From IMG/VR virus record IMGVR_UViG_3300045988_068405, positions 1 through 42,414 of that record: DNA of 42,414 bases, one strand, 5' to 3'. Below are positions 5,984 through 38,061 of the stretch, in pieces. The position numbers and the translations under genes are program-made. This DNA is from a virus. A model generated the notes under the pieces. That model was not told the origin of the DNA and searched no databases. It saw only the letters and a list, made by a program, of their open reading frames with translations. The stretch's first letter is position 1, and the number at the start of each line of letters is the position of its first letter.

Positions 5984-6535
5984 ATGGAATATAAAATTTT
6001 AATTGATTTTTTAAATAATTTTGATGACTTTCAAGATTTCTTTGTAAAAATTGAATCTTTGCGTGTGTCAGCAAAAAGCATTGAGGACTTAGAATTATTA
6101 AAAAAGGTAGCTGATGTGTTTAAACTTAAATTTAATCCTAATGCAATCACATATTTGAAAGACTCAATTGATTTAGAAATTGTATGTTTTCATAGAAGAG
6201 ACACAAGAACATTTATAGAAAAGGCTATGCAGATGCAAATTATAGAGAACTTCAACTTATTTTTCCCAAAATATACATTCATCGAATGTGAAAAAGTGCT
6301 AGAAGGAATAGGTAGAATTGATATATATGCATTGTATGAAGGCAGGAGCGTAATAATAGAGCTAAAGGCAGGCGCAAAAAGCCCTAATTCTCAGCTCATT
6401 TCATATGGTTCAAGGTTTGAAAACCCTATTTTAATAGGAGTAACAGAGAAAAAGATTCCTGTAAATAAAAGAATTGATGGAATTTTATATTTTACTTTTG
6501 AAGAATTAAAAAGGAGAACTATAAGTAATGAATAA
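5984..6535 (+). CDS. PD-(D/E)xK (NucS/DUF91-type) nuclease-like protein, AT-rich insert
   Basis: 183 aa starting at the internal ATG 5984. Motif 'GRIDIYALYEGRSVIIELKAGAKSPNSQLISY' fits D...ExK...Q..Y. Markedly AT-rich relative to its neighbours. Confidence 0.55.
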   Translation: MEYKILIDFLNNFDDFQDFFVKIESLRVSAKSIEDLELLKKVADVFKLKFNPNAITYLKDSIDLEIVCFHRRDTRTFIEKAMQMQIIENFNLFFPKYTFIECEKVLEGIGRIDIYALYEGRSVIIELKAGAKSPNSQLISYGSRFENPILIGVTEKKIPVNKRIDGILYFTFEELKRRTISNE

Positions 6536-6785
6536 GCGGCAGAGAAAGAAGCAGTTCAAGAAGCTTCACAATATGAACCCGAAGCAGTACTTCCTTGAGA
6601 AAGCAATGCCAGAAATCATAAAAATTGTAGTAGATGTAGCTACTGCTATGGTTAGAGTATTGTGCAAGCATAACGGTACTCTTTGGGAGATTGCCAGAGT
6701 ACGGATGGCAAATGCTAACCTGCTGAAAAATCTCACAGAGCAGCGAAAGCAAGGGAAGAGAAAGAAAGGAAAATGGAGCAGATGA
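6528..6785 (+). CDS. Hypothetical basic protein
   Basis: 85 aa. Lys/Arg-rich at both termini. Overlaps its neighbours by a few nt (operon coupling). Confidence 0.5.
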   Translation: MNKRQRKKQFKKLHNMNPKQYFLEKAMPEIIKIVVDVATAMVRVLCKHNGTLWEIARVRMANANLLKNLTEQRKQGKRKKGKWSR

Positions 6786-29760: not shown

Positions 29761-31816
29761 AGCAATTTATGAGCTGGACATGACCCCAAGGAGAGCCCTC
29801 CCAATCATCATCAATGTATCACAATATGATGATATAGGAAGAACACTTGTTTTTAACTTATTTACATCCTCTGGCAAGTGGACTGCTCCCACCTCTGCGG
29901 CTGTAACTTTTGAGGGTGGTAAGCCTGATGGCAAGTTTTTTTCGTATAACTGCGCATACTCCAACGGCACTGTAACTGTGACTATACAGCAGCAGATGAC
30001 GGCTGTAGCAGGCAAGGTAAGATGTAAGGTCAAGGTAAAATCTGGCGACAAGGTAGTGGAGTCTGCCCCTATCATCATGGTTGTAGATGCTGCCGCAGTA
30101 CCAGACGGCTCTGACATGTCCAAGAGTGACATTAACGATGCTATCGCCAATGCCACTCAGAAAATCGTTGATCAGGTTAAGGATACTATCCCATCCGACT
30201 ATGCACAGCTAAGTACAGATATTAATTCACTAAAGCAAGATAAAGTTGATAAACCTTCTGCCACTGACGATGGCAAAATACCAAGAGCAAAGGAAGGAGG
30301 GGTAGAGTGGGTGGAGGTAGGGCAACCGACAGACGAACAGACAAATAGCGCAGTATCAAGTTGGTTGAATGAACATCCAGAAGCAACAACTACTGTGTCG
30401 GATGGTAGTATCAATGAAGAGAAATTTACAAATGCATTAAGAAAAAAGAAGGCAAATTATTATATATCGGTTGAAAGGATGAAAGAAGATACATCCTTGA
30501 TAATAGATACTGTATGTGTTACTTTAGGTTATTACGAGCTAAATGATGGCGGTAGGTCTACTTATAAAGTTCGTAAAAAGATTGCTACTGATATTGATGA
30601 TGGCGGGTCTATCATTTTTTTAAATAATAAGCTTGTCGCAGAATTGATTGTTGAAAATGAAACGGTGAATGTAAAACAATTTGGTGCACGTGGCAATGGT
30701 ATTAATGACGATTATAATTATTTTAGAAATGCGATAGTTTTCTCTAAAGGAAACGGATTTGAAATTAAAATTCCAGTTGGAACTTTTATTATATCAAAAC
30801 AATTAAATTTAAAATCCGTTGTTGGTTTAAAAATTATTGGCATGAATGACTCATCAGAAAGATATGCGACTAAAATTATTTATGGTGGAACTAATTCTTG
30901 TTTAAATTTAGATGGGTGTAAAAATATCAGTATCTGTAATTTTCATTTAGAAGCAAAAAATGGAACTGGTATTTCTTTAACTGGTGATAGAAGTCTTAAT
31001 TGTCATTTTTCTGATATTTATATTTCTAATATGATTTATGGTATATATATTACTGCCACAACTGGATATATTTATTTCGATAGAGTTAGAATGAATGTAT
31101 CAGAAAATACAATTAATGGCACTTTTATAGACTGCAATAATGAAATTTATACCAATTATGTTTATTTTAGAGAGTGCGCAGTGGATGCATTATCTATATC
31201 TGATAAAACTAGGACTCTTGTATATCTTGGAAATTGCTACTATATTTATTTTAGCCATTGTGATATTTGTAATGGTCATATTGCTATTGCTTTTGATAAA
31301 AACGTTGATTATATTTTTATAAATGATACAACATTGTATAATATGGACATTGGGCTGCTGACATTAAAAAGTGTAACACACATTCCATATATACATGCTA
31401 CCAATACATTATTAAAGTGTAAGACTGGATTAGATGAAGAAGATGGTTTGGGTGGACATTATTCGTTTAGTTCATGCTCTTGGAATTGTACAGTTAATAA
31501 TATAGGAAGTATAAAACGACCGGCTAAAGCATCATCTTGTTATTTTACAAATCGTTTGGAAAACTTAAAAAACAAGATTTATGAAACATGCGAAGCAATG
31601 AACAACAAATATTACTTGAGCGTAAAAGCAAATTCTACTGAAAGTAAAGAAATTTATGTTGTAGGAGATTATATGACTGATAACTATATTGCTATTTCAC
31701 CAGACTCCGAACTTTTAATAAAATCTCAGACTTACAATACTACTAACAAAAAGATAGAATTAACAGTTACAAATAACACAAATTATGATAGGGGAGCATA
31801 TTTCTTTATTTGTTAA
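29753..31816 (+). CDS. Receptor-binding protein: BppU-like N-terminus plus pectate-lyase-type beta-helix (putative depolymerase)
   Basis: 687 aa. The N-terminus 'LPIIINVSQYDDIGRTLVFNLF' is BppU-like. 'VNVKQFGARGNGINDDYNYFRNAI' is the classic start of a Pectate_lyase_3 beta-helix. The 3' two-thirds are AT-rich. Confidence 0.7.
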   Translation: MIKAIYELDMTPRRALPIIINVSQYDDIGRTLVFNLFTSSGKWTAPTSAAVTFEGGKPDGKFFSYNCAYSNGTVTVTIQQQMTAVAGKVRCKVKVKSGDKVVESAPIIMVVDAAAVPDGSDMSKSDINDAIANATQKIVDQVKDTIPSDYAQLSTDINSLKQDKVDKPSATDDGKIPRAKEGGVEWVEVGQPTDEQTNSAVSSWLNEHPEATTTVSDGSINEEKFTNALRKKKANYYISVERMKEDTSLIIDTVCVTLGYYELNDGGRSTYKVRKKIATDIDDGGSIIFLNNKLVAELIVENETVNVKQFGARGNGINDDYNYFRNAIVFSKGNGFEIKIPVGTFIISKQLNLKSVVGLKIIGMNDSSERYATKIIYGGTNSCLNLDGCKNISICNFHLEAKNGTGISLTGDRSLNCHFSDIYISNMIYGIYITATTGYIYFDRVRMNVSENTINGTFIDCNNEIYTNYVYFRECAVDALSISDKTRTLVYLGNCYYIYFSHCDICNGHIAIAFDKNVDYIFINDTTLYNMDIGLLTLKSVTHIPYIHATNTLLKCKTGLDEEDGLGGHYSFSSCSWNCTVNNIGSIKRPAKASSCYFTNRLENLKNKIYETCEAMNNKYYLSVKANSTESKEIYVVGDYMTDNYIAISPDSELLIKSQTYNTTNKKIELTVTNNTNYDRGAYFFIC

Positions 31817-31833
31817 GGAGGAGGCGATAACTA

Positions 31834-32010
31834 ATGGCATTACAACAGGATTGGATTATTTCCTTAAAAGGATTTTGTGCCGATAGTGTCGCTGTACACA
31901 GTATAGTTAACTTTAGTAGTGGCAGGAGGAAGAACTTGAAAAGATACCGCTTTATTGCGTTGGCACGTGCCGAACCGCATACGAAAGAAATTAAAAAAGA
32001 CTCAAAATAA
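31834..32010 (+). CDS. Hypothetical small basic protein (58 aa, not in ORF track)
   Basis: ATG 31834 follows GGAGGAGG. Hand translation MALQQDWIISLKGF...KEIKKDSK. Preferred over the antisense listed ORF 31806..32174. Confidence 0.45.
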   Translation: MALQQDWIISLKGFCADSVAVHSIVNFSSGRRKNLKRYRFIALARAEPHTKEIKKDSK

Positions 32011-33920: not shown

Positions 33921-34178
33921 ATGGATAGAGGGCTTGTTAAGATATTTTGGGGATGCGGTGACAATGGTATAATTGAGTATGCCCTGATGAGGGCACGACT
34001 GAATCGGAAGGAGAAAGAGGCAGTAACTTATCTTTTGGATGAGTGTATGTCTCAAGAAGAAGCAGCGGAAAAGATGTGTGTAAGTACACGGAGATTTCAA
34101 GAGTACTGGTACTCGGCATCTGATAAGCTGCTGTCCCTTCCGTGGCTTGCAGCTTATGCAGAAGAGTTGAAAAAATAG
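33921..34178 (+). CDS. Sigma-70 region-4-only / LuxR-type HTH protein
   Basis: 85 aa; 'LNRKEKEAVTYLLDECMSQEEAAEKMCVSTRRFQEYW'. Followed by a terminator. Confidence 0.55.
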   Translation: MDRGLVKIFWGCGDNGIIEYALMRARLNRKEKEAVTYLLDECMSQEEAAEKMCVSTRRFQEYWYSASDKLLSLPWLAAYAEELKK

Positions 34179-34182
34179 CACG

Positions 34183-34205
34183 GGTGGGGAAATTCCCCAC
34201 CTTTT
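34183..34205 (+). terminator. Intrinsic terminator
   Basis: Stem GGTGGGG/CCCCACC (34183-34189/34195-34201), loop AAATT, then TTTTG. Confidence 0.7.
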
Positions 34206-34237: not shown

Positions 34238-34270
34238 AGAAGGGCAGAAAAGAAAATGGAGGGACACACA

Positions 34271-34840
34271 ATGAGAAAATCTTTGTACGCATTAACCATG
34301 GCACTTGCACTTGCAGTATCTACAGCCCCAGTAATGGCAGAAGAAACAAGCACAGAAGAAGGAGCTGAGATTGCAGCAGACGAGAACACAGTAGAAGGTA
34401 TCGAGGCAATGATTCAAAAGCTTGAAAAGCAGATTGCGGAATTGAAGCAGAAGTTAAAAGAGCTTCGAGGAGAGAATGCAATTCAGGAGGGCGATATCGT
34501 ATATCAGGACGATATGGTAATCATTACCTACAACGGAATATCTGACGAGTATGGGCGGTATGATATTATGCTTACTGCCGAGAATCTTACCGATAAAAAA
34601 ATTCGTGTGCAGACATCTGATACATCAATCAATGGCTATATGACATACCAGATGTTTTCAGTTGGGCTCGAAGCCAACAAAAAATCGAAGGGAACGCTTA
34701 CCATTGATGATAGCGTAGAAATTGAAAATATTGAAGATTTGCAGAATGTGGAGACAAAGATCCAGATATTGGATGATACTACATATGAAGAGCTTCTTCT
34801 GACTGACCCAATTACTATCAATTTCAACATTGAAAAATAA
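34271..34840 (+). CDS. Secreted protein (signal peptide; DUF4352-like beta domain, putative)
   Basis: 189 aa from ATG 34271 (RBS GGAGGG). Signal peptide 'MRKSLYALTMALALAVSTAPVMA-EE', then a coiled-coil linker and a beta-rich C-terminal domain. Confidence 0.65.
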   Translation: MRKSLYALTMALALAVSTAPVMAEETSTEEGAEIAADENTVEGIEAMIQKLEKQIAELKQKLKELRGENAIQEGDIVYQDDMVIITYNGISDEYGRYDIMLTAENLTDKKIRVQTSDTSINGYMTYQMFSVGLEANKKSKGTLTIDDSVEIENIEDLQNVETKIQILDDTTYEELLLTDPITINFNIEK

Positions 34841-34849
34841 AAAAATGAG

Positions 34850-34881
34850 AGAGCTTGCCAGAAACGGCAGGCTCTTTTTTT
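34850..34881 (+). terminator. Strong intrinsic terminator
   Basis: 10-bp stem 34850-34859/34866-34875 (one G.U), loop AGAAAC, T7 run. Confidence 0.8.
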
Positions 34882-34928
34882 ATGCGTAAAATCATCGTGC
34901 CTGCATCGTGTCTTTTCTCCTCTGCATG

Positions 34929-34937
34929 TGTGATAAT
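34929..34937 (+). promoter_or_regulatory. Extended -10 promoter of the seven-gene cluster
   Basis: TGtGATAAT (34929-34937) within aTGTGTGATAAT. The -35 (TGTCTT) is weak. Located 23 nt upstream of ATG 34960. Confidence 0.5.
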
Positions 34938-34959
34938 ACAGCCATGGAGGGAAGAACGC

Positions 34960-35343
34960 ATGTATAAAAGATATAATCCAAACCCAGTTGCAGCAAGAGT
35001 AGGAGATTGCACCGTCAGGGCATTATGCAAGGCTCTTGATCAGGACTGGGACAAGACCTACTTACAGCTTTGCGTGCAGGGCTTGCTGATGGCTGATATG
35101 CCGTCTGCAAATGCCGTGTGGGGCGCATACCTGCATGACAAAGGTTTTAGGCGAGGTATAGTCTCTGAAGCTTGCCCTATCTGCTATAACGTTGCATCAT
35201 TCGCGGCAGAACATCCACAAGGGGTGTATGTATTGGCACTGGGAAGCCATGTTGTAACTGTGGTTGATGGTGATTATTTTGATACATGGGATTCAGGGCA
35301 GGAAATCCCCCTCTATTTCTGGGAAAGGAGTGACGAAGCATGA
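34960..35343 (+). CDS. Papain-like cysteine-peptidase-fold protein (putative; Cys/His/Asp candidates)
   Basis: 127 aa from ATG 34960 (RBS GGAGGGAAG). 'RVGDCTVRALCKAL' and 'LALGSHVVTVVDGDYFDTWDSG'. Confidence 0.5.
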   Translation: MYKRYNPNPVAARVGDCTVRALCKALDQDWDKTYLQLCVQGLLMADMPSANAVWGAYLHDKGFRRGIVSEACPICYNVASFAAEHPQGVYVLALGSHVVTVVDGDYFDTWDSGQEIPLYFWERSDEA

Positions 35344-35819
35344 ACGGATATAACCCTTACTATGGATATCAACCTTATAGCCCACCAGTCCCAGATCAGC
35401 TAGCGCAACTGCGGTACAATCAGGGGATGCAGCAAGGAATGCAGCAGGGCTTTCAAGGGTTCGGGCAGCAAAGCAATGATGAGCGTATCTGGGTGCAGGG
35501 CAAGAATGCGGCAGAAGCTTATCTAGTGGCGGCAAATGGCTTTGTAAGACTTTGGGACAGCAACGGACAAGTTTTTTACGAGAAACGAGCTGATGCATCA
35601 GGGCGACCGTGCATGGAAACCTACGAGTACAAACGACTGGGCGCAGAGCTGCCTAAAACGGGAGCAGAAAGCAAGAGTAGTGTAAATGATTACTCAAAAG
35701 AGATTGATAGCTTGAAGGTGCGGCTAGCAGCACTAGAAAAACGTTTAAACGATGGAGGTAGAGCAAATGCAAATGTTTCAGAATCCAATGCAAATGATTC
35801 AGCAGTTTCAGAAATTTAA
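35340..35819 (+). CDS. Gln/Tyr/Gly-rich N-terminus protein, unknown function
   Basis: 159 aa with ATGA coupling. 'NPYYGYQPYSPPVPDQLAQLRYNQGMQQGMQQGFQGFGQQ', then 'IWVQGKNAAEAYLVAANGFVRLWDSNGQVFYEK'. Confidence 0.65.
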   Translation: MNGYNPYYGYQPYSPPVPDQLAQLRYNQGMQQGMQQGFQGFGQQSNDERIWVQGKNAAEAYLVAANGFVRLWDSNGQVFYEKRADASGRPCMETYEYKRLGAELPKTGAESKSSVNDYSKEIDSLKVRLAALEKRLNDGGRANANVSESNANDSAVSEI

Positions 35820-35952
35820 ACAGCAGTTTACAGGCGATCCAAAGGCAGAGGTGCAGAAGCTCCTCACCTCTGGCAAGATCAATCAGCAGCAACTCAATCA
35901 GTTGCAAGCAATGGCACAGCAGTTCCAAGGGCTGCTGAATGGCGGTAAGTAA
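35767..35952 (+). CDS. Gln-rich small protein (61 aa)
   Basis: ATG 35767 lies 7 nt after GGAGGT. Sequence 'MQMFQNPMQMIQQFQKFKQQFTGDPKAEVQKLL...'. Overlaps the upstream gene by 53 nt in another frame. Confidence 0.55.
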   Translation: MQMFQNPMQMIQQFQKFKQQFTGDPKAEVQKLLTSGKINQQQLNQLQAMAQQFQGLLNGGK

Positions 35953-36001
35953 ATCACGCTAAAAGCGTTGATTATATATCTCATTGAAAGGAGAAAAAAA
36001 C

Positions 36002-36859
36002 ATGAGTTTAACAAGCGAAAGTATGACTCCTGCCGATATCGCAGCAGTAACAGGCAACTGCAGTGGTAATGGTATGTGGGGCGATGGTGGCGCATGGTGG
36101 ATTATCATCCTCTTCCTGTTCGCATTTTGCGGATGGGGCGGCAATGGATGGGGAAACAACGGAGGCGCAGCAGGTGCAGCAGATAACTACGTGCTTGCAA
36201 GCGATTTCGCAACCTTGCAGCGACAGATTGATAGCTCTACAGCATCGCTAGAGCGCAAATCCGATGCGATCAACAGCGGCTTATGTGATGGATTCTATGC
36301 CCAGAACACTACCGCGTTGACTGGATTCTCAAACGTAAACCAGAACCTTTGTAATGGCTTTGCACAGGCTGAGTTATCCAGAGCCAACGGGCAGATGAAT
36401 CTTATGCAGCAGATGAACGCAAACAATATCACAGCTATGCAGAATGCAAACGCTTTGCAGTCTCAGCTTGCACAGTGCTGCTGTGATAACCGAGAGGCTA
36501 TCTCTGGTGTGAATTACAACATGGCGACGAATACCAATGCGGTACAGCATAGTGTAGAGAATGGCTTCTGCCAGACGAACTACAACAACGCTTCCAATAC
36601 ACGTGATATCATCGACAACCAGAACAGCAACGCAAGAGCGATCCTCGATGCACTGAATGCGCAGCAGATTGCGGCAAAAGATGCGAAGATTGCAGAGCAG
36701 AGTCAGCAGATTTTTGGCTTGCAGCTTGCAGCATCTCAGCAGGCACAGAATAACTATTTGGTACAGACTCTTAAACCTGCGCCTGTTCCAAGCTTCCCTG
36801 CTGGACAGCTCTATGGCTACATGAACGGCTGCTGCAATCCGTGCAATGGCTGTTCCTGA
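36002..36859 (+). CDS. Membrane-anchored Gln/Asn-rich, Cys-cluster protein
   Basis: 285 aa from ATG 36002 (RBS AAAGGAG). TM 'AWWIIILFLFAFCGWG', a Gly/Asn/Trp stretch, 'LAQCCCDNREAISGVNYN', and a C-terminal 'GCCNPCNGCS'. Confidence 0.7.
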   Translation: MSLTSESMTPADIAAVTGNCSGNGMWGDGGAWWIIILFLFAFCGWGGNGWGNNGGAAGAADNYVLASDFATLQRQIDSSTASLERKSDAINSGLCDGFYAQNTTALTGFSNVNQNLCNGFAQAELSRANGQMNLMQQMNANNITAMQNANALQSQLAQCCCDNREAISGVNYNMATNTNAVQHSVENGFCQTNYNNASNTRDIIDNQNSNARAILDALNAQQIAAKDAKIAEQSQQIFGLQLAASQQAQNNYLVQTLKPAPVPSFPAGQLYGYMNGCCNPCNGCS

Positions 36860-36874
36860 TAGGGGGTGGCGAGT

Positions 36875-37285
36875 ATGGCAGAGTATACATTAACCACACC
36901 TACAGCCGTCCCTCTGGGCGGTGCAGTGCCATATACCAACACAATTATCAAGGGTTGCTGTAACATCAAGCACAGGGCAGGTTCAGGGCAGGTGACTGTC
37001 AAGGGCGGCACTTGCTGCAACCCTGCAAAGTACCTCGTGTACTTCCATGCCAACGTAACAGGAGTTGCAGGAGCAATTCAGCTTGCGCTGTTTCTGGATG
37101 GTGAGAGGCTGCCAGAAACTTTAATGTCTGTTGTTCCTGTGGCTACTACTGACGTTTGGTCAGTCGATGCAGAGACGGAATTTTGCGTAGACTGCTGCTG
37201 TGGCACAGTCTCAGCAAGAGTAGTAGGGGGTGCGACTGTTACGGTTAATACAGCAGAAATAATTGTGAAAAAGGAGGTGGCATAA
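36875..37285 (+). CDS. Cys-rich beta-protein, BclA-C-terminal/C1q(TNF)-like (putative)
   Basis: 136 aa. 'GCCNIKH', 'GTCCNPAKYLVYFHANVTG', 'IQLALFLDGERLP', 'CVDCCCG' and 'TVNTAEIIVKK' follow the pattern of BclA C-terminal jelly-roll domains (recollection). Confidence 0.55.
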   Translation: MAEYTLTTPTAVPLGGAVPYTNTIIKGCCNIKHRAGSGQVTVKGGTCCNPAKYLVYFHANVTGVAGAIQLALFLDGERLPETLMSVVPVATTDVWSVDAETEFCVDCCCGTVSARVVGGATVTVNTAEIIVKKEVA

Positions 37286-37680
37286 TGGGAACAATGGAAG
37301 ATTTGAAGCGCATGATTTGCACAGAGCTTGAAGAAATCGCACAGAAGGGCGAAATGTCAGCAGGCGATCTTGACACGGTGTATAAGCTGATTGTATCGAA
37401 AGAAAAGCTTCTGCGCATTGACGAGCTTGAAGAAAAGCTTGGCTATAGCGAGGACGGCAGAAAATGGAGATACAGCAGAGACGGAGAGCCAGATGGCGGC
37501 AGCAGCTATGGACGGCATTATGTGAGGGCACACTACAGCAGAGACGGCAGAGGACGCTACAGCATGGATGAGGGACGCACGATGCTTGCAGATCAGATCA
37601 GAGATATGATTGATAACAGTGATCTGAGCCAGAACCAGAAAGGCGCACTCAGAAAGGCAATGGAAGCTTTGCAGGAATGA
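37285..37680 (+). CDS. Hypothetical protein with YSRDG repeats
   Basis: 131 aa with TAATG coupling. 'WRYSRDGEPDGGSSYGRHYVRAHYSRDGRGRYSMDEG' is flanked by helical ends. Confidence 0.65.
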   Translation: MGTMEDLKRMICTELEEIAQKGEMSAGDLDTVYKLIVSKEKLLRIDELEEKLGYSEDGRKWRYSRDGEPDGGSSYGRHYVRAHYSRDGRGRYSMDEGRTMLADQIRDMIDNSDLSQNQKGALRKAMEALQE

Positions 37681-37701
37681 TGATGGAAAGGGGGTAGAGC
37701 G

Positions 37702-38025
37702 ATGCTTGATATGGACGAGATCAGAAGCGAGATTACACGGCTTGAGAACGAAAAAACAACTTACTCATCAGTGGAAAAGCTTGCTATGCTCTACATAGTA
37801 CAAGAGCGCAACTCCCCTACACCAGAACCAGAGCCAATTGAGATACAGCAAATGCCAAGATATGCGTATGCAGCAGCACCAACTGCCCCTAAATCTGATT
37901 TTTTAGAGGCGGTTGGAAAAGTACCGATAGAAAAAGCCTTAGATGTACTGGATGAACATATGGAAGCAATAAAGCTGCTATATCCTAAGGAGTACAAGGC
38001 TGTGATCAACAAAATACTGACATAA
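37702..38025 (+). CDS. Hypothetical protein (helical ends, Pro-rich linker)
   Basis: 107 aa with RBS AAAGGGGG. Last gene before the terminator. Confidence 0.65.
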   Translation: MLDMDEIRSEITRLENEKTTYSSVEKLAMLYIVQERNSPTPEPEPIEIQQMPRYAYAAAPTAPKSDFLEAVGKVPIEKALDVLDEHMEAIKLLYPKEYKAVINKILT

Positions 38026-38030
38026 AAAGA

Positions 38031-38061
38031 AGAGGGGAGCTGCGTGCCCTCCTCTTTTTTT
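38031..38061 (+). terminator. Intrinsic terminator closing the seven-gene cluster
   Basis: Stem 38031-38040/38046-38055 (one G.U, one mismatch), loop TGCGT, T7 run. Confidence 0.75.

What the first reader, a model, noticed from the sequence alone, without database searches (positions are those of the whole stretch)
34929..38061. Insulated seven-gene cluster of Gln/Asn-rich and Cys-cluster proteins: candidate novel surface or self-assembly system
The cluster lies between two strong terminators (34850-34881 and 38031-38061) and is driven by its own extended -10 promoter (aTGTGTGATAAT). It holds seven tightly packed genes, with ATGA and TAATG couplings and one 53-nt overlap.
1. A 127-aa papain-like candidate ('GDCTVRA', 'GSHVVTVVDGDYFDTWDSG').
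2. A 159-aa protein with a Tyr/Gln/Gly prion-like N-terminus.
3. A 61-aa Gln-rich protein.
4. A 285-aa membrane-anchored Gln/Asn-rich protein with 'QCCCD' and a C-terminal 'GCCNPCNGCS'.
5. A 136-aa beta-protein with 'GCCN', 'TCCNP' and 'DCCCG', whose pattern resembles BclA C-terminal/C1q-TNF-like jelly rolls of exosporium proteins.
6. A 131-aa protein with YSRDG repeats.
7. A 107-aa protein with helical ends and a Pro-rich linker.

The recurring CCN(P) motif in two proteins, the membrane anchor, the Q/N-rich low-complexity regions and the putative peptidase suggest a disulfide-crosslinked, self-assembling envelope or spore-surface structure. A processing and maturation pathway for one is also possible. 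None of the seven matches a standard virion, lysis, lysogeny or known defence function that I can recognise. Combined with the upstream sigma-r4-like gene, a role in modifying the host surface, or the spore coat or exosporium, is a testable hypothesis.
Basis: partly seen in the sequence, partly recalled or inferred. Interest (0 to 1): 0.78.

Follow-up and report, generated by a model that had tools for sequence, protein, structure and literature searches.

The report
Conserved mystery operon in gut phages
The seven genes are real and form a self-contained operon found in thousands of temperate phages of gut Clostridia; it probably builds a cysteine-rich, membrane-anchored protein assembly, and what that assembly does is unknown.

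Summary
All seven ORFs have ribosome-binding sites, the stated overlaps are correct, a stable terminator hairpin lies on each side, and an extended -10 promoter (TGTGATAAT) sits 22 nt before g1.

The cluster is a conserved unit. In 70 loci, a core g2-g3-g4 plus a small Cys-rich beta protein keeps one order at the lysis-to-integrase/att end of prophages of gut Clostridia. The g4 family has at least 7966 clusters, none annotated.

- **g5:** a stand-alone BclA-C/C1q/TNF jelly roll (pLDDT 92; TM 0.75-0.78 to F-BclA, BclA, BxpB and ExsFA).
- **g1:** has an invariant Cys17/His97/Asp108 but matches no family.
- **g4:** a membrane-spanning helix, long helices, a Pro-rich segment and a Cys/Gly tail, with six near-invariant cysteines.
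- **Export:** no other protein has an export signal.

The spore-surface reading is weakened. No sigmaE/K/G/F consensus was found in 60 upstream regions. The cassette is also intact in Vescimonas, a genus reported as non-spore-forming.

My best reading, at low confidence, is a prophage accessory operon that builds a membrane-anchored g4-g5 assembly, docked as ExsF docks BclA, with g1 as the maturation peptidase. Its role may be exclusion of other phages or envelope remodelling. Function is inferred, not shown.

The parts
33921..34178 (+). Small (85 aa) sigma-70 region-4 / GerE-LuxR type HTH protein, a likely regulator associated with the cassette. It has its own terminator at 34182-34202.
   Evidence: Pfam Sigma70_r4_2 E 0.018 and PHROG 1190 sigma factor 3.5e-4. 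It is homologous (hhalign 96%) to family F9, which hits Pfam GerE at 1.4e-6. One or the other family sits just upstream of the cassette in about 26 loci.
34847..34881 (+). Intrinsic terminator closing the upstream 194-aa gene and insulating the cassette.
   Evidence: 13-bp stem, -20.8 kcal/mol, z -5.6, followed by U7.
34877..34910 (+). Boundary motif TTTTTATGC / TGCGTA-N6-TCGTG with a direct repeat CATCGTG x2 (period 11). A possible operator or module junction.
   Evidence: Each pattern occurs once in the window. TTTTATGC occurs in 12 of 60 cassette-upstream regions against fewer than 1 expected. L001, L004 and L029 share TGCGTA-N6/7-TCGTG.
34929..34937 (+). Extended -10 promoter TGTGATAAT, 22 nt before the g1 start codon.
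   Evidence: Read directly. The same element sits 21-28 nt before the first cassette gene in 10 loci. Overall 15 of 60 regions carry it, against 6.2 +/- 2.4 in shuffles.
34960..35343 (+). g1, 127 aa. A candidate Cys-His-Asp hydrolase, probably a maturation peptidase.
   Evidence: Invariant N6, N8, D16, C17, R20, H97, D108 in 26 homologues. PHROG 3754 at 7e-28, function unknown. 1143 homologue clusters, none with a Pfam domain. In 7 loci its slot holds an HExxH metalloprotease-like gene instead.
35340..35819 (+). g2, 159 aa, a core component. It has a Y/P/Q-rich low-complexity N-terminus, a conserved domain of about 50 aa, and a C-terminal helix.
   Evidence: Present in 64 of 70 loci immediately before g3 and g4. 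Alignment A7. PHROG 21718. No Pfam or PDB relative.
35767..35952 (+). g3, 61 aa, a core component. Small Q-rich helical protein (34% Q+N).
   Evidence: Families F8 and F2 (hhalign E 8.6e-5) occupy this slot in 67 loci between them. PHROG 22984.
36002..36859 (+). g4, 285 aa, the hub of the cassette. It has an acidic N-tail with a double-glycine-like motif, a membrane-spanning helix (AWWIIILFLFAFCGW), a Gly/Asn linker, long helices, a Pro-rich segment and a Cys/Gly tail.
   Evidence: At least 7966 homologue clusters, no Pfam. In 64 homologues C95, C159-161, C277, C284 and GxCDGFY are 86-100% conserved. Architecture shown. The AF2 monomer model is unusable (pLDDT 46) but helical.
36875..37285 (+). 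g5, 136 aa. A stand-alone BclA-C / C1q / TNF-type jelly roll with CC/CCC clusters.
   Evidence: AF2 pLDDT 92.3. Foldseek against PDB: F-BclA CTD 9h38 at E 3e-10, BclA, BxpB, ExsFA, TM 0.75-0.78. BFVD: stand-alone gut-phage proteins, two named 'BclA protein'. 14 of 58 family members hit PF18573. 537 representative clusters; nearly all of the best 150 listed are 100-200 aa, mostly 125-160.
37285..37680 (+). g6, 131 aa. Helix, then an R/G/Y/S-rich disordered segment (YSRDG x2), then helix.
   Evidence: Family F10 in 19 loci, homologous to F6 (hhalign 96%) in 25 more. PHROG 28802.
37702..38025 (+). g7, 107 aa. Helical ends joined by a Pro-rich linker.
   Evidence: Family F11 follows g6 in 15 loci. 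No family hit.
38026..38061 (+). Intrinsic terminator closing the cassette.
   Evidence: -17.2 kcal/mol, z -3.2, followed by U7.

Best explanation
The cluster is an autonomous accessory operon, organised like a moron. A very large group of temperate phages of gut Clostridia carries it at the far end of the late/lysis region, next to the integrase or attachment site.

It encodes a multi-protein assembly centred on g4. g4 has one membrane-spanning helix near its N-terminus, a long helical stalk, a conserved Pro-rich segment and a Cys/Gly tail.

I infer the following steps:
- The g5 trimer is a stand-alone BclA-C/C1q-type head. In other phages an unrelated Cys-rich beta protein takes its place. 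It docks on the Pro-rich/Cys end of g4, much as the stand-alone ExsF trimer docks the Pro-rich leader of BclA and F-Anchor.
- The conserved cysteines lock the contact, either through a metal or through disulfides.
- The Q/N-rich g2 and g3, and the disordered g6 (with g7), act as scaffold or adaptor parts.
- g1 is a Cys-His-Asp peptidase that removes a double-glycine-like N-terminal leader from g4.

Only g4 has a membrane segment, and its flanking charges favour an N-out/C-in orientation. The assembly therefore most likely forms on the cytoplasmic face of the membrane of the lysogen or of the late-infected cell.

Its most plausible job is to alter the envelope to the phage's benefit, for example by excluding superinfecting phage.

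**Shown:** the genes, the operon signals, the conservation and position, the g5 fold, and the conserved residues.
**Inferred:** the contacts, the topology, the proteolysis and the biological role.
For: - **Operon signals:**. Extended -10 boxes are enriched and lie at a fixed distance in other loci.
- **Conserved order:** g2, then g3, then g4, then a beta protein, then g6-type genes, in 70 loci.
- **Position:** the cassette follows holin/lysin genes and precedes an integrase in 14 of 44 loci, or host genes.
- **Composition:** the cassette is 47.5-50% G+C against about 43% for the phage.
- **Variable neighbours:** extra genes are inserted between lysin and cassette in relatives.
- **g5 fold and family:**
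- **Docking precedent:** ExsF with a Pro-rich leader, and cleavage of BclA residues 1-19, in PMC12357932.
- **g4 anatomy, conserved Cys and Pro, charge pattern:**
- **g1 triad:**
- **Protease slot:** taken by an HExxH protein in 7 loci.
- **Leader link:** the g4 leader-like motif occurs in 26 of 36 loci with g1 against 3 of 28 without (Fisher 7.7e-7).
- **Cys in both slot families:** the g5 slot holds two unrelated Cys-rich families.
Against: - No protein-protein contact, topology, cleavage or expression timing was tested.
- The g4 model is unusable (pLDDT 46).
- g4 tail types do not co-vary with the type of beta protein.
- The leader/g1 association is not corrected for phylogeny, and 10 loci with g1 lack the motif.
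- g1 has no significant similarity to C39 or to any peptidase family.
- There is no match to known defence or exclusion proteins, and known exclusion systems are usually single small genes.
- A cassette this conserved and this fixed in position could instead be a core lytic-cycle function switched on late by the upstream HTH protein.
Confidence: 0.33

Rival explanations
1. Spore-surface module. The proteins are made in the mother cell of a sporulating lysogen and built into the coat or exosporium. g5 acts as an ExsF/BxpB-like anchor or BclA-like head, and the cysteines cross-link after release.
For: - The closest structural neighbours of g5 are exosporium proteins.
- CC motifs drive Ena and L-BclA coupling.
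- Lack of signal peptides fits assembly in the mother-cell cytoplasm.
- A GerE-type small HTH protein lies upstream.
- The Q/Y-rich and Cys-rich composition is coat-like.
- Hosts are Clostridia.
Against: - None of 60 upstream regions matches sigmaE/K/G/F consensus patterns (these patterns are Bacillus subtilis-derived, from memory), whereas sigmaA-type extended -10 boxes are enriched.
- An intact cassette sits in Vescimonas fastidiosa MM35. Vescimonas is described and predicted as non-spore-forming (PMC11334427).
- The cassette also occurs in Lachnospira.
- There are no Ena, exosporium-leader or GerQ model hits.
- The same fold is common in phage fibre tips.
Confidence: 0.12
2. Very late lytic-cycle function. 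The upstream HTH protein switches the operon on after the lysis genes. The operon then acts in egress or on the released particles, for example a membrane-anchored helper of lysis, a split fibre or decoration added to virions, or masking of receptors on cell debris.
For: - The cassette always lies directly downstream of holin/lysin genes, on the same strand.
- The HTH gene sits between lysis genes and cassette.
- All partners are cytoplasmic, as virion parts are.
- BclA-C-type heads occur on tail fibres and spikes, such as 9eul and 8ke9.
- The cassette is conserved while neighbouring genes vary.
Against: - Terminators and a separate promoter isolate it from the late operon.
- The phage already has TMP, Dit, Tal and a BppU_N-type receptor-binding protein, plus a complete holin/lysin set.
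- A strongly hydrophobic N-terminal membrane helix does not fit a fibre.
- No PHROG structural or lysis annotation.
- There is no lipoprotein partner for a spanin-like role.
- One contig with 97% identical Tal lacks the cassette. This is weak evidence, because the assembly may be chimeric.
Confidence: 0.17
3. Bacteriocin-like or signalling module. g4 is a precursor with a double-glycine leader, processed by a C39-like peptidase (g1). Its Gly/Trp-rich hydrophobic N-terminal part acts on membranes of competitors or of the producer.
For: - The g4 N-terminus fits the double-glycine leader pattern: V-4, I-7, D-8, M-12, then G-N.
- g1 has D16-C17 and H97, where ComA's C39 domain has C17 and H96 (PMC10630487).
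- Motif and g1 co-occur.
Against: - There is no ABC exporter or immunity gene in the cassette.
- g4 carries a further 220 conserved residues.
- hhalign of g1 against ComA PEP gives 0.7% probability.
- About half of the loci have no g1.
Confidence: 0.06
4. Intracellular metal- or redox-active cysteine assembly. The conserved CCC, CGC and Cx3Cx2C clusters bind Zn, Fe-S or Cu at the membrane and serve stress tolerance or sensing in the lysogen.
For: - Six near-invariant Cys in g4, and Cys clusters in both g5-slot families, including an N-terminal Cx3Cx2C in F5.
- The predicted location is cytoplasmic, where disulfides are unlikely.
Against: No metal-binding family hit. No enzyme partner. The Q-rich and disordered partners are left unexplained.
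Confidence: 0.06

Closest known systems
ExsF/BxpB with BclA or F-Anchor: exosporium anchoring in the Bacillus cereus group (PDB 7r5i, 8d02, 9h3d; PMC12357932)
   Same: g5 is a stand-alone TNF/C1q-type jelly roll of the same size and fold (TM 0.73-0.77). g4 offers a conserved Pro-rich peptide next to its end. A proteolytic step is plausible, since BclA residues 1-19 are cleaved.
   Different: - No sequence membership for g5 itself.
- No collagen repeats, no exosporium-leader model hit, and no ExsY/CotY partner.
- The partner is membrane-anchored and helical.
- The cassette is phage-borne, has a sigmaA-type promoter, and occurs in non-spore-formers.
BclA / F-BclA / L-BclA C-terminal C1q heads, and Ena CC-motif connectors
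   Same: The head fold is the same. CC motifs are the covalent coupling device in S-/L-Ena and L-BclA.
   Different: In g5 the head is not fused to a stalk. Its CC clusters lie inside the domain (residues 28-29, 46-47, 108-112), not in an N-terminal connector. No DUF3992 or DUF4183 protein is present.
Morons / lysogenic-conversion genes at the lysis-att end of prophages. This comparison rests on general knowledge, for example toxin genes of streptococcal and staphylococcal prophages, and lambda bor and lom.
   Same: Own promoter and terminator, deviating G+C, a position between lysis genes and int/att, and variable neighbours.
   Different: It has five to seven co-ordinated genes instead of one or two. 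It is far more conserved and widespread than typical morons. No toxin, exclusion or defence homology was found.
Peptidase C39 domains of bacteriocin/pheromone exporters (ComA, PCAT1)
   Same: Size is about 130 aa. D-C lies at 16-17 and His near 96-97. A candidate substrate with a double-glycine-like leader lies in the same operon.
   Different: No significant sequence or profile similarity. It is not fused to an ABC transporter. The cleavage motif would be G-N/G-R.
Rz-type i-spanins
   Same: An N-terminal membrane helix, long helices and conserved cysteines, encoded next to the lysis genes.
   Different: No o-spanin lipoprotein partner. Most hosts named in the record titles are Clostridia, which I take from general knowledge to be monoderm. 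g4 is twice as long. The charge pattern favours the opposite topology. It is a separate transcription unit.

Membership tests
BclA_C / C1q-TNF jelly-roll superfamily (g5) | Ten-stranded jelly-roll fold superposable on the BclA C-terminal domain | tested here: met
   AF2 pLDDT 92.3, pTM 0.85. Foldseek hits 9h38, 1wck, 2z5w, 8d02 and 7r5i at E 3e-10 to 1e-7, TM 0.73-0.78.
BclA_C / C1q-TNF jelly-roll superfamily (g5) | Match to Pfam PF18573 | tested here: inconclusive
   g5 itself has no hit. 14 of 58 relatives found by profile search hit PF18573, best 2.3e-10. The family profile hits 9h38_A at E 0.0043.
BclA proper (collagen-like exosporium glycoprotein) | N-terminal exosporium leader plus a collagen GXX stalk fused to the head | tested here: not met
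   g5 is 136 aa with no repeats. Of 537 representative relatives, nearly all of the best 150 listed are 100-200 aa, mostly 125-160, matched end to end, i.e. stand-alone. The longer ones are gene fusions with g1 or g2 parts.
ExsF/BxpB-type stand-alone exosporium anchor | Stand-alone TNF-like trimer that binds a Pro-rich leader peptide | not testable with these tools
   The stand-alone fold is met. Trimerisation and peptide docking need a multimer prediction or an experiment. g4 has a conserved Pro-rich segment.
ExsF/BxpB-type stand-alone exosporium anchor | Belongs to a sporulation programme (spore-forming host, mother-cell promoter) | tested here: not met
   None of 60 upstream regions matches sigmaE/K/G/F consensus patterns. 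The cassette is present in Vescimonas fastidiosa, a genus reported as non-spore-forming.
Ena endospore appendages | DUF3992 or DUF4183 subunit with an N-terminal connector or hook | tested here: not met
   No such Pfam hit for any of the seven proteins, for 58 g5 relatives, or for 18 F5 proteins.
Peptidase C39 (g1) | Catalytic Cys and His at conserved positions in a domain of about 130 aa | tested here: met
   C17, H97 and D108 are invariant in 26 homologues. ComA has C17 and H96.
Peptidase C39 (g1) | Significant sequence or profile similarity to the family | tested here: not met
   No Pfam hit in 26 members or 1143 homologue clusters. The profile search against PDB gave nothing at E<=10.
Peptidase C39 (g1) | Substrate with a double-glycine leader, and a cognate ABC exporter | tested here: inconclusive
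   The leader-like motif in g4 co-occurs with g1: 26 of 36 loci with g1 against 3 of 28 without. No ABC transporter in any locus.
Moron (autonomous accessory unit of a prophage) | Own promoter and terminator, deviating composition, and a location between late genes and int/att | tested here: met
   Promoter activity itself is not shown.
Moron (autonomous accessory unit of a prophage) | Dispensable for lytic growth and expressed in the lysogen | not testable with these tools
   The only hint is contig L094, with 97% identical Tal but no cassette. It may be an assembly chimera.
Known anti-phage defence systems | Match to a PADLOC-DB model | tested here: not met
   No hit below E 0.2 for any protein.
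Two-component spanin | An i-spanin plus an outer-membrane lipoprotein partner, in a diderm host | tested here: not met
   No lipobox gene in the cassette. Most hosts named in the record titles are Clostridia, which I take from general knowledge to be monoderm.

The most novel reading that the evidence does not exclude
Temperate phages of gut Clostridia carry a previously unrecognised protein machine: a split fibre. One polypeptide supplies the membrane anchor and helical stalk (g4). A separate polypeptide supplies a C1q/BclA-type head (g5). The two are locked by conserved cysteine clusters, matured by a dedicated peptidase, and embedded in Gln-rich and disordered partners. In effect this is exosporium-style architecture, redeployed by prophages on vegetative membranes of mostly non-model gut anaerobes. 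It would be one of the commonest accessory modules of the human gut virome and would define a new class of lysogenic-conversion or exclusion apparatus.
Probability: 0.2. Interest if true: 0.85.

Novelty: categorically new. Interest (0 to 1): 0.63.

Why it matters
The hub protein g4 has at least about 8000 sequence clusters in public gut metagenomes. One exact variant is indexed in 119 blocks of the assembly collection. Yet six of the seven proteins match no Pfam or NCBIfam model, either directly or through relatives. None matches a defence model, and no protein other than g5 has a relative among solved structures. No cultured phage carries the cassette, and I found no paper on it.

A conserved five-to-seven-gene unit at the lysogenic-conversion end of prophages of Lachnospiraceae, Oscillospiraceae and Ruminococcus is likely to affect how dominant gut commensals interact with phages or with their surroundings.

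A cultured lysogen exists (Vescimonas fastidiosa MM35), so the question can be tested directly.

The cassette would also extend the BclA-C/ExsF head family, and cysteine-cluster coupling, beyond spores.

Tried and rejected
**Library and sequence searches**
- Pfam, NCBIfam and PADLOC on all seven proteins gave nothing. PHROGs gave only families of unknown function.
- Single-sequence searches of PDB with g1, g4 and g5 gave only chance-level hits. The NheB/MakE hit for g4 (E 0.32) vanished with the family profile.
- Family-profile searches of PDB with g1, g2, g4 and F5 gave nothing.
- A search of cultured phages (INPHARED) found only uncultured gut records.
- Literature searches for DUF7841, for the PHROG identifiers, and for BclA with prophage found nothing relevant.
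- Rfam and tRNA scans of the window were empty.

**Structure**
- The AF2 model of g4 has pLDDT 46, so I did not use it for fold search.

**Specific hypotheses tested**
- Sporulation promoters: none found.
- C39 membership of g1 by hhalign: not significant.
- Homology between the two g5-slot families F4 and F5: none.
- Homology of g7 or g6 with DUF7841 proteins (F7): none.
- Co-variation of g4 tail type with F4 or F5: none visible.
- A programmed frameshift between g2 and g3: rejected, because the overlap is not conserved.
- A receptor-binding-protein role for g5: unlikely, because relatives carry a BppU_N-type baseplate protein.
- Longer g5 relatives as evidence for fused stalks or signal peptides: they turned out to be g1-g5 and g2-g5 fusion calls.

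Full report
**1. Observation**

The window is a tailed-phage genome of about 43% G+C. Plus-strand genes run from about 0.7 kb to 38 kb, followed by a minus-strand lysogeny block with a 486-aa serine recombinase.

Between 34.9 kb and 38.1 kb all seven ORFs of the finding are present. Each chosen start has a GGAGG-type ribosome-binding site. The ATGA and TAATG couplings and the 53-nt g2/g3 overlap are correct.

The flanking hairpins are strong. The first is 34847-34878, at -20.8 kcal/mol, z -5.6. The second is 38026-38060, at -17.2 kcal/mol, z -3.2. Each is followed by U7. TGTGATAAT lies 22 nt before g1.

Cys is enriched in g1, g4 and g5 (3.9-5.9% against 1.65% elsewhere). Q+N is enriched in g2, g3 and g4 (16-34% against 8.6%).

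**2. The cluster is a conserved unit**

PHROGs places six of the seven proteins in families of unknown function. Pfam, NCBIfam and PADLOC give nothing.

A contig with only 51-68% protein identity (L001) has the same seven genes in the same order, directly before a serine recombinase.

g4 has at least 7966 homologue clusters.

A scan of one genome per species found 69 loci. Most are in MAGs of Lachnospiraceae, Oscillospiraceae, Ruminococcus and other Clostridia, and many lie on 40-45 kb phage-sized contigs.

I clustered all ORFs of these loci. This gives one order throughout:
1. A g2-type protein (64 loci).
2. A g3-type protein (families F8 and F2, hhalign E 8.6e-5).
3. g4 (70 loci).
4. A beta protein of about 135 aa.
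5. Either g6+g7, or a g6-like F6 (hhalign 96%), or F7, which is a low-complexity region plus DUF7841.

g1 lies before g2 or after F6 in 37 loci. In seven loci without g1, an HExxH metalloprotease-like protein takes its place.

A small sigma-r4/GerE-type HTH gene precedes the cassette in about 26 loci. These are family F17, as in the window, or the homologous F9.

**3. Position in the phage**

Upstream lie holins, XhlA-like proteins and lysins of many types: ELLD, Amidase_2, Amidase_3, PGRP, M23 and glucosaminidase.

Downstream, the nearest large ORF is a tyrosine integrase in 9 loci and a serine recombinase in 5, out of 44. In other loci it is an ordinary host gene.

In the cultured Vescimonas fastidiosa MM35 the cassette is the last prophage block before a lactate permease, LDH, miaB and mutLS.

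Close relatives of the window phage insert an extra Zn-ribbon gene between the lysin and g1. The cassette is richer in G+C than the rest of the phage.

The cassette therefore occupies the classical lysogenic-conversion slot and is organised like a moron. Even so, it is more conserved than its neighbours.

**4. The proteins**

*g5.* The AlphaFold2 model is confident (pLDDT 92.3). It matches the C-terminal heads of F-BclA and BclA and the stand-alone exosporium proteins BxpB and ExsFA at TM 0.73-0.78. C1q, TNF and EDA follow, along with some phage fibre tips.

In BFVD the best matches are stand-alone proteins of 130-145 aa from uncultured gut phages. Two of them are named 'BclA protein'.

A profile search finds 537 representative relatives. 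Nearly all of the best 150 listed are 100-200 aa, mostly 125-160. Of 58 sampled, 14 hit Pfam BclA_C. The family profile hits 9h38 at E 0.0043.

In about 29 loci the same slot holds an unrelated family, F5. It has 10-12 Cys and an N-terminal Cx3Cx2C.

*g4.* Across 64 homologues the architecture is constant:
- an acidic N-tail of about 30 aa;
- a strongly hydrophobic helix flanked by Gly-rich runs;
- long helices;
- a Pro-rich P.P.PAY.V.NP segment;
- a CGC-type tail.

C95 (in GxCDGFY), C159-161, C277 and C284 are 86-98% conserved. The N-tail has a median of 0 K/R and 3 D/E. By the positive-inside rule this favours N-out/C-in. That is an inference, not a result.

The monomer model is unusable (pLDDT 46).

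*g1.* N6, N8, D16, C17, R20, H97 and D108 are invariant. The D-C pair and the Cys-His spacing recall the C39 domain of ComA, which has C17 and H96 (PMC10630487). However, no profile method links g1 to any family.

*g2, g3, g6 and g7.* None has a relative of known function.

**5. Links between parts**

The N-terminus of g4 in the window (M-12, D-8, I-7, V-4, then G-N) fits the pattern of double-glycine leaders. The motif D[IVL]A[AL]x[TS]G[NR] occurs in 26 of 36 loci that have g1, and in 3 of 28 that do not (Fisher 7.7e-7). This test is not corrected for relatedness.

The ExsF trimer binds the Pro-rich leader of F-Anchor and BclA in clefts between subunits. BclA loses residues 1-19 by proteolysis (PMC12357932). 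This is the closest worked example for how a stand-alone head like g5 could hold the Pro-rich end of g4.

CC motifs couple Ena subunits and L-BclA.

None of these contacts could be computed here.

**6. Against the spore reading**

Extended -10 boxes of the sigmaA type are enriched upstream of the cassette: 15 of 60 regions against 6.2 +/- 2.4 in shuffles. Ten of them lie 21-28 nt before the start codon.

Consensus patterns for sigmaE, K, G and F occur in none of the 60 regions. The patterns are Bacillus subtilis-derived (from memory), so this is suggestive only.

Vescimonas, which carries an intact cassette, is described and predicted as non-spore-forming.

**7. Verdict**

The unit is real, very widespread and unannotated.

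Its anatomy points to a membrane-anchored, cysteine-locked assembly with a C1q-type head and a maturation protease, expressed as an autonomous prophage operon.

The biological role is not established. Possibilities are exclusion of other phages, envelope remodelling, a very late lytic function, and a spore-surface role. I rank these in the explanations above and give the experiments that would separate them. A cultured lysogen is available for those experiments.

Noticed in passing
window 34256-34840: A 194-aa protein with a Sec-type signal peptide and a coiled coil forms its own terminator-bounded unit between the HTH gene and the cassette. Close relatives (L075, L076) add a 173-aa Zn-ribbon gene here. 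The gap between lysin and cassette therefore collects accessory genes.
   Followed up: partly
window 34877-34910: The motifs TTTTTATGC and TGCGTA-N6-TCGTG lie just after the upstream terminator, with a CATCGTG direct repeat (period 11). Each pattern occurs once in the window. TTTTATGC occurs in 12 of 60 cassette-upstream regions against fewer than 1 expected. This may be an operator for the small HTH protein or a module junction.
   Followed up: partly
L071 (Dulem virus 33, PP511792) 6175-6726: A minus-strand gene annotated 'endonuclease' is inserted between the g3-type and g4-type genes of an otherwise intact cassette.
   Followed up: no
L094 14889-18105 (IMG/VR contig of 120 kb): This relative has a 97% identical tail protein and an 80% identical lysin, but lacks the HTH gene, the 194-aa gene and g1-g7. 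The lysin is followed directly by a 717-aa terminase-like ORF. It is either a relative without the cassette or a chimeric assembly.
   Followed up: partly
L082, L085-L089, L096, L097 against the window: Among close relatives g2 falls to 64% identity and g1 to 87%, while g4-g7 stay at 81-99% (mostly 92-99%). The cassette is mosaic internally.
   Followed up: no
proteins P0243, P0213, P0273: Library proteins join a g1-type or g2-type N-terminus to a g5-type C-terminus. They look like deletion fusions within cassettes.
   Followed up: no
F5 family, e.g. L051 6539-6937 and L053 6650-7054: An unrelated protein of about 130 aa with 10-12 Cys replaces g5 in about 29 loci. Its N-terminus reads MACKPVCKLC (Cx3Cx2C). 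It has no Pfam, PHROG or PDB relative.
   Followed up: partly
window 30000-32000: G+C falls to 30-36% over the 687-aa gene that follows the tail-tip protein. Relatives have a BppU_N-type protein here. This is probably a recently exchanged receptor-binding gene.
   Followed up: no
L072 (GCA_963655905.1 contig, 60 kb): Here the cassette is followed by a resolvase and a Rep3-type replication gene, and lies near a 4052-aa helicase/methylase-type ORF. This suggests a phage-plasmid or another mobile element as carrier.
   Followed up: no
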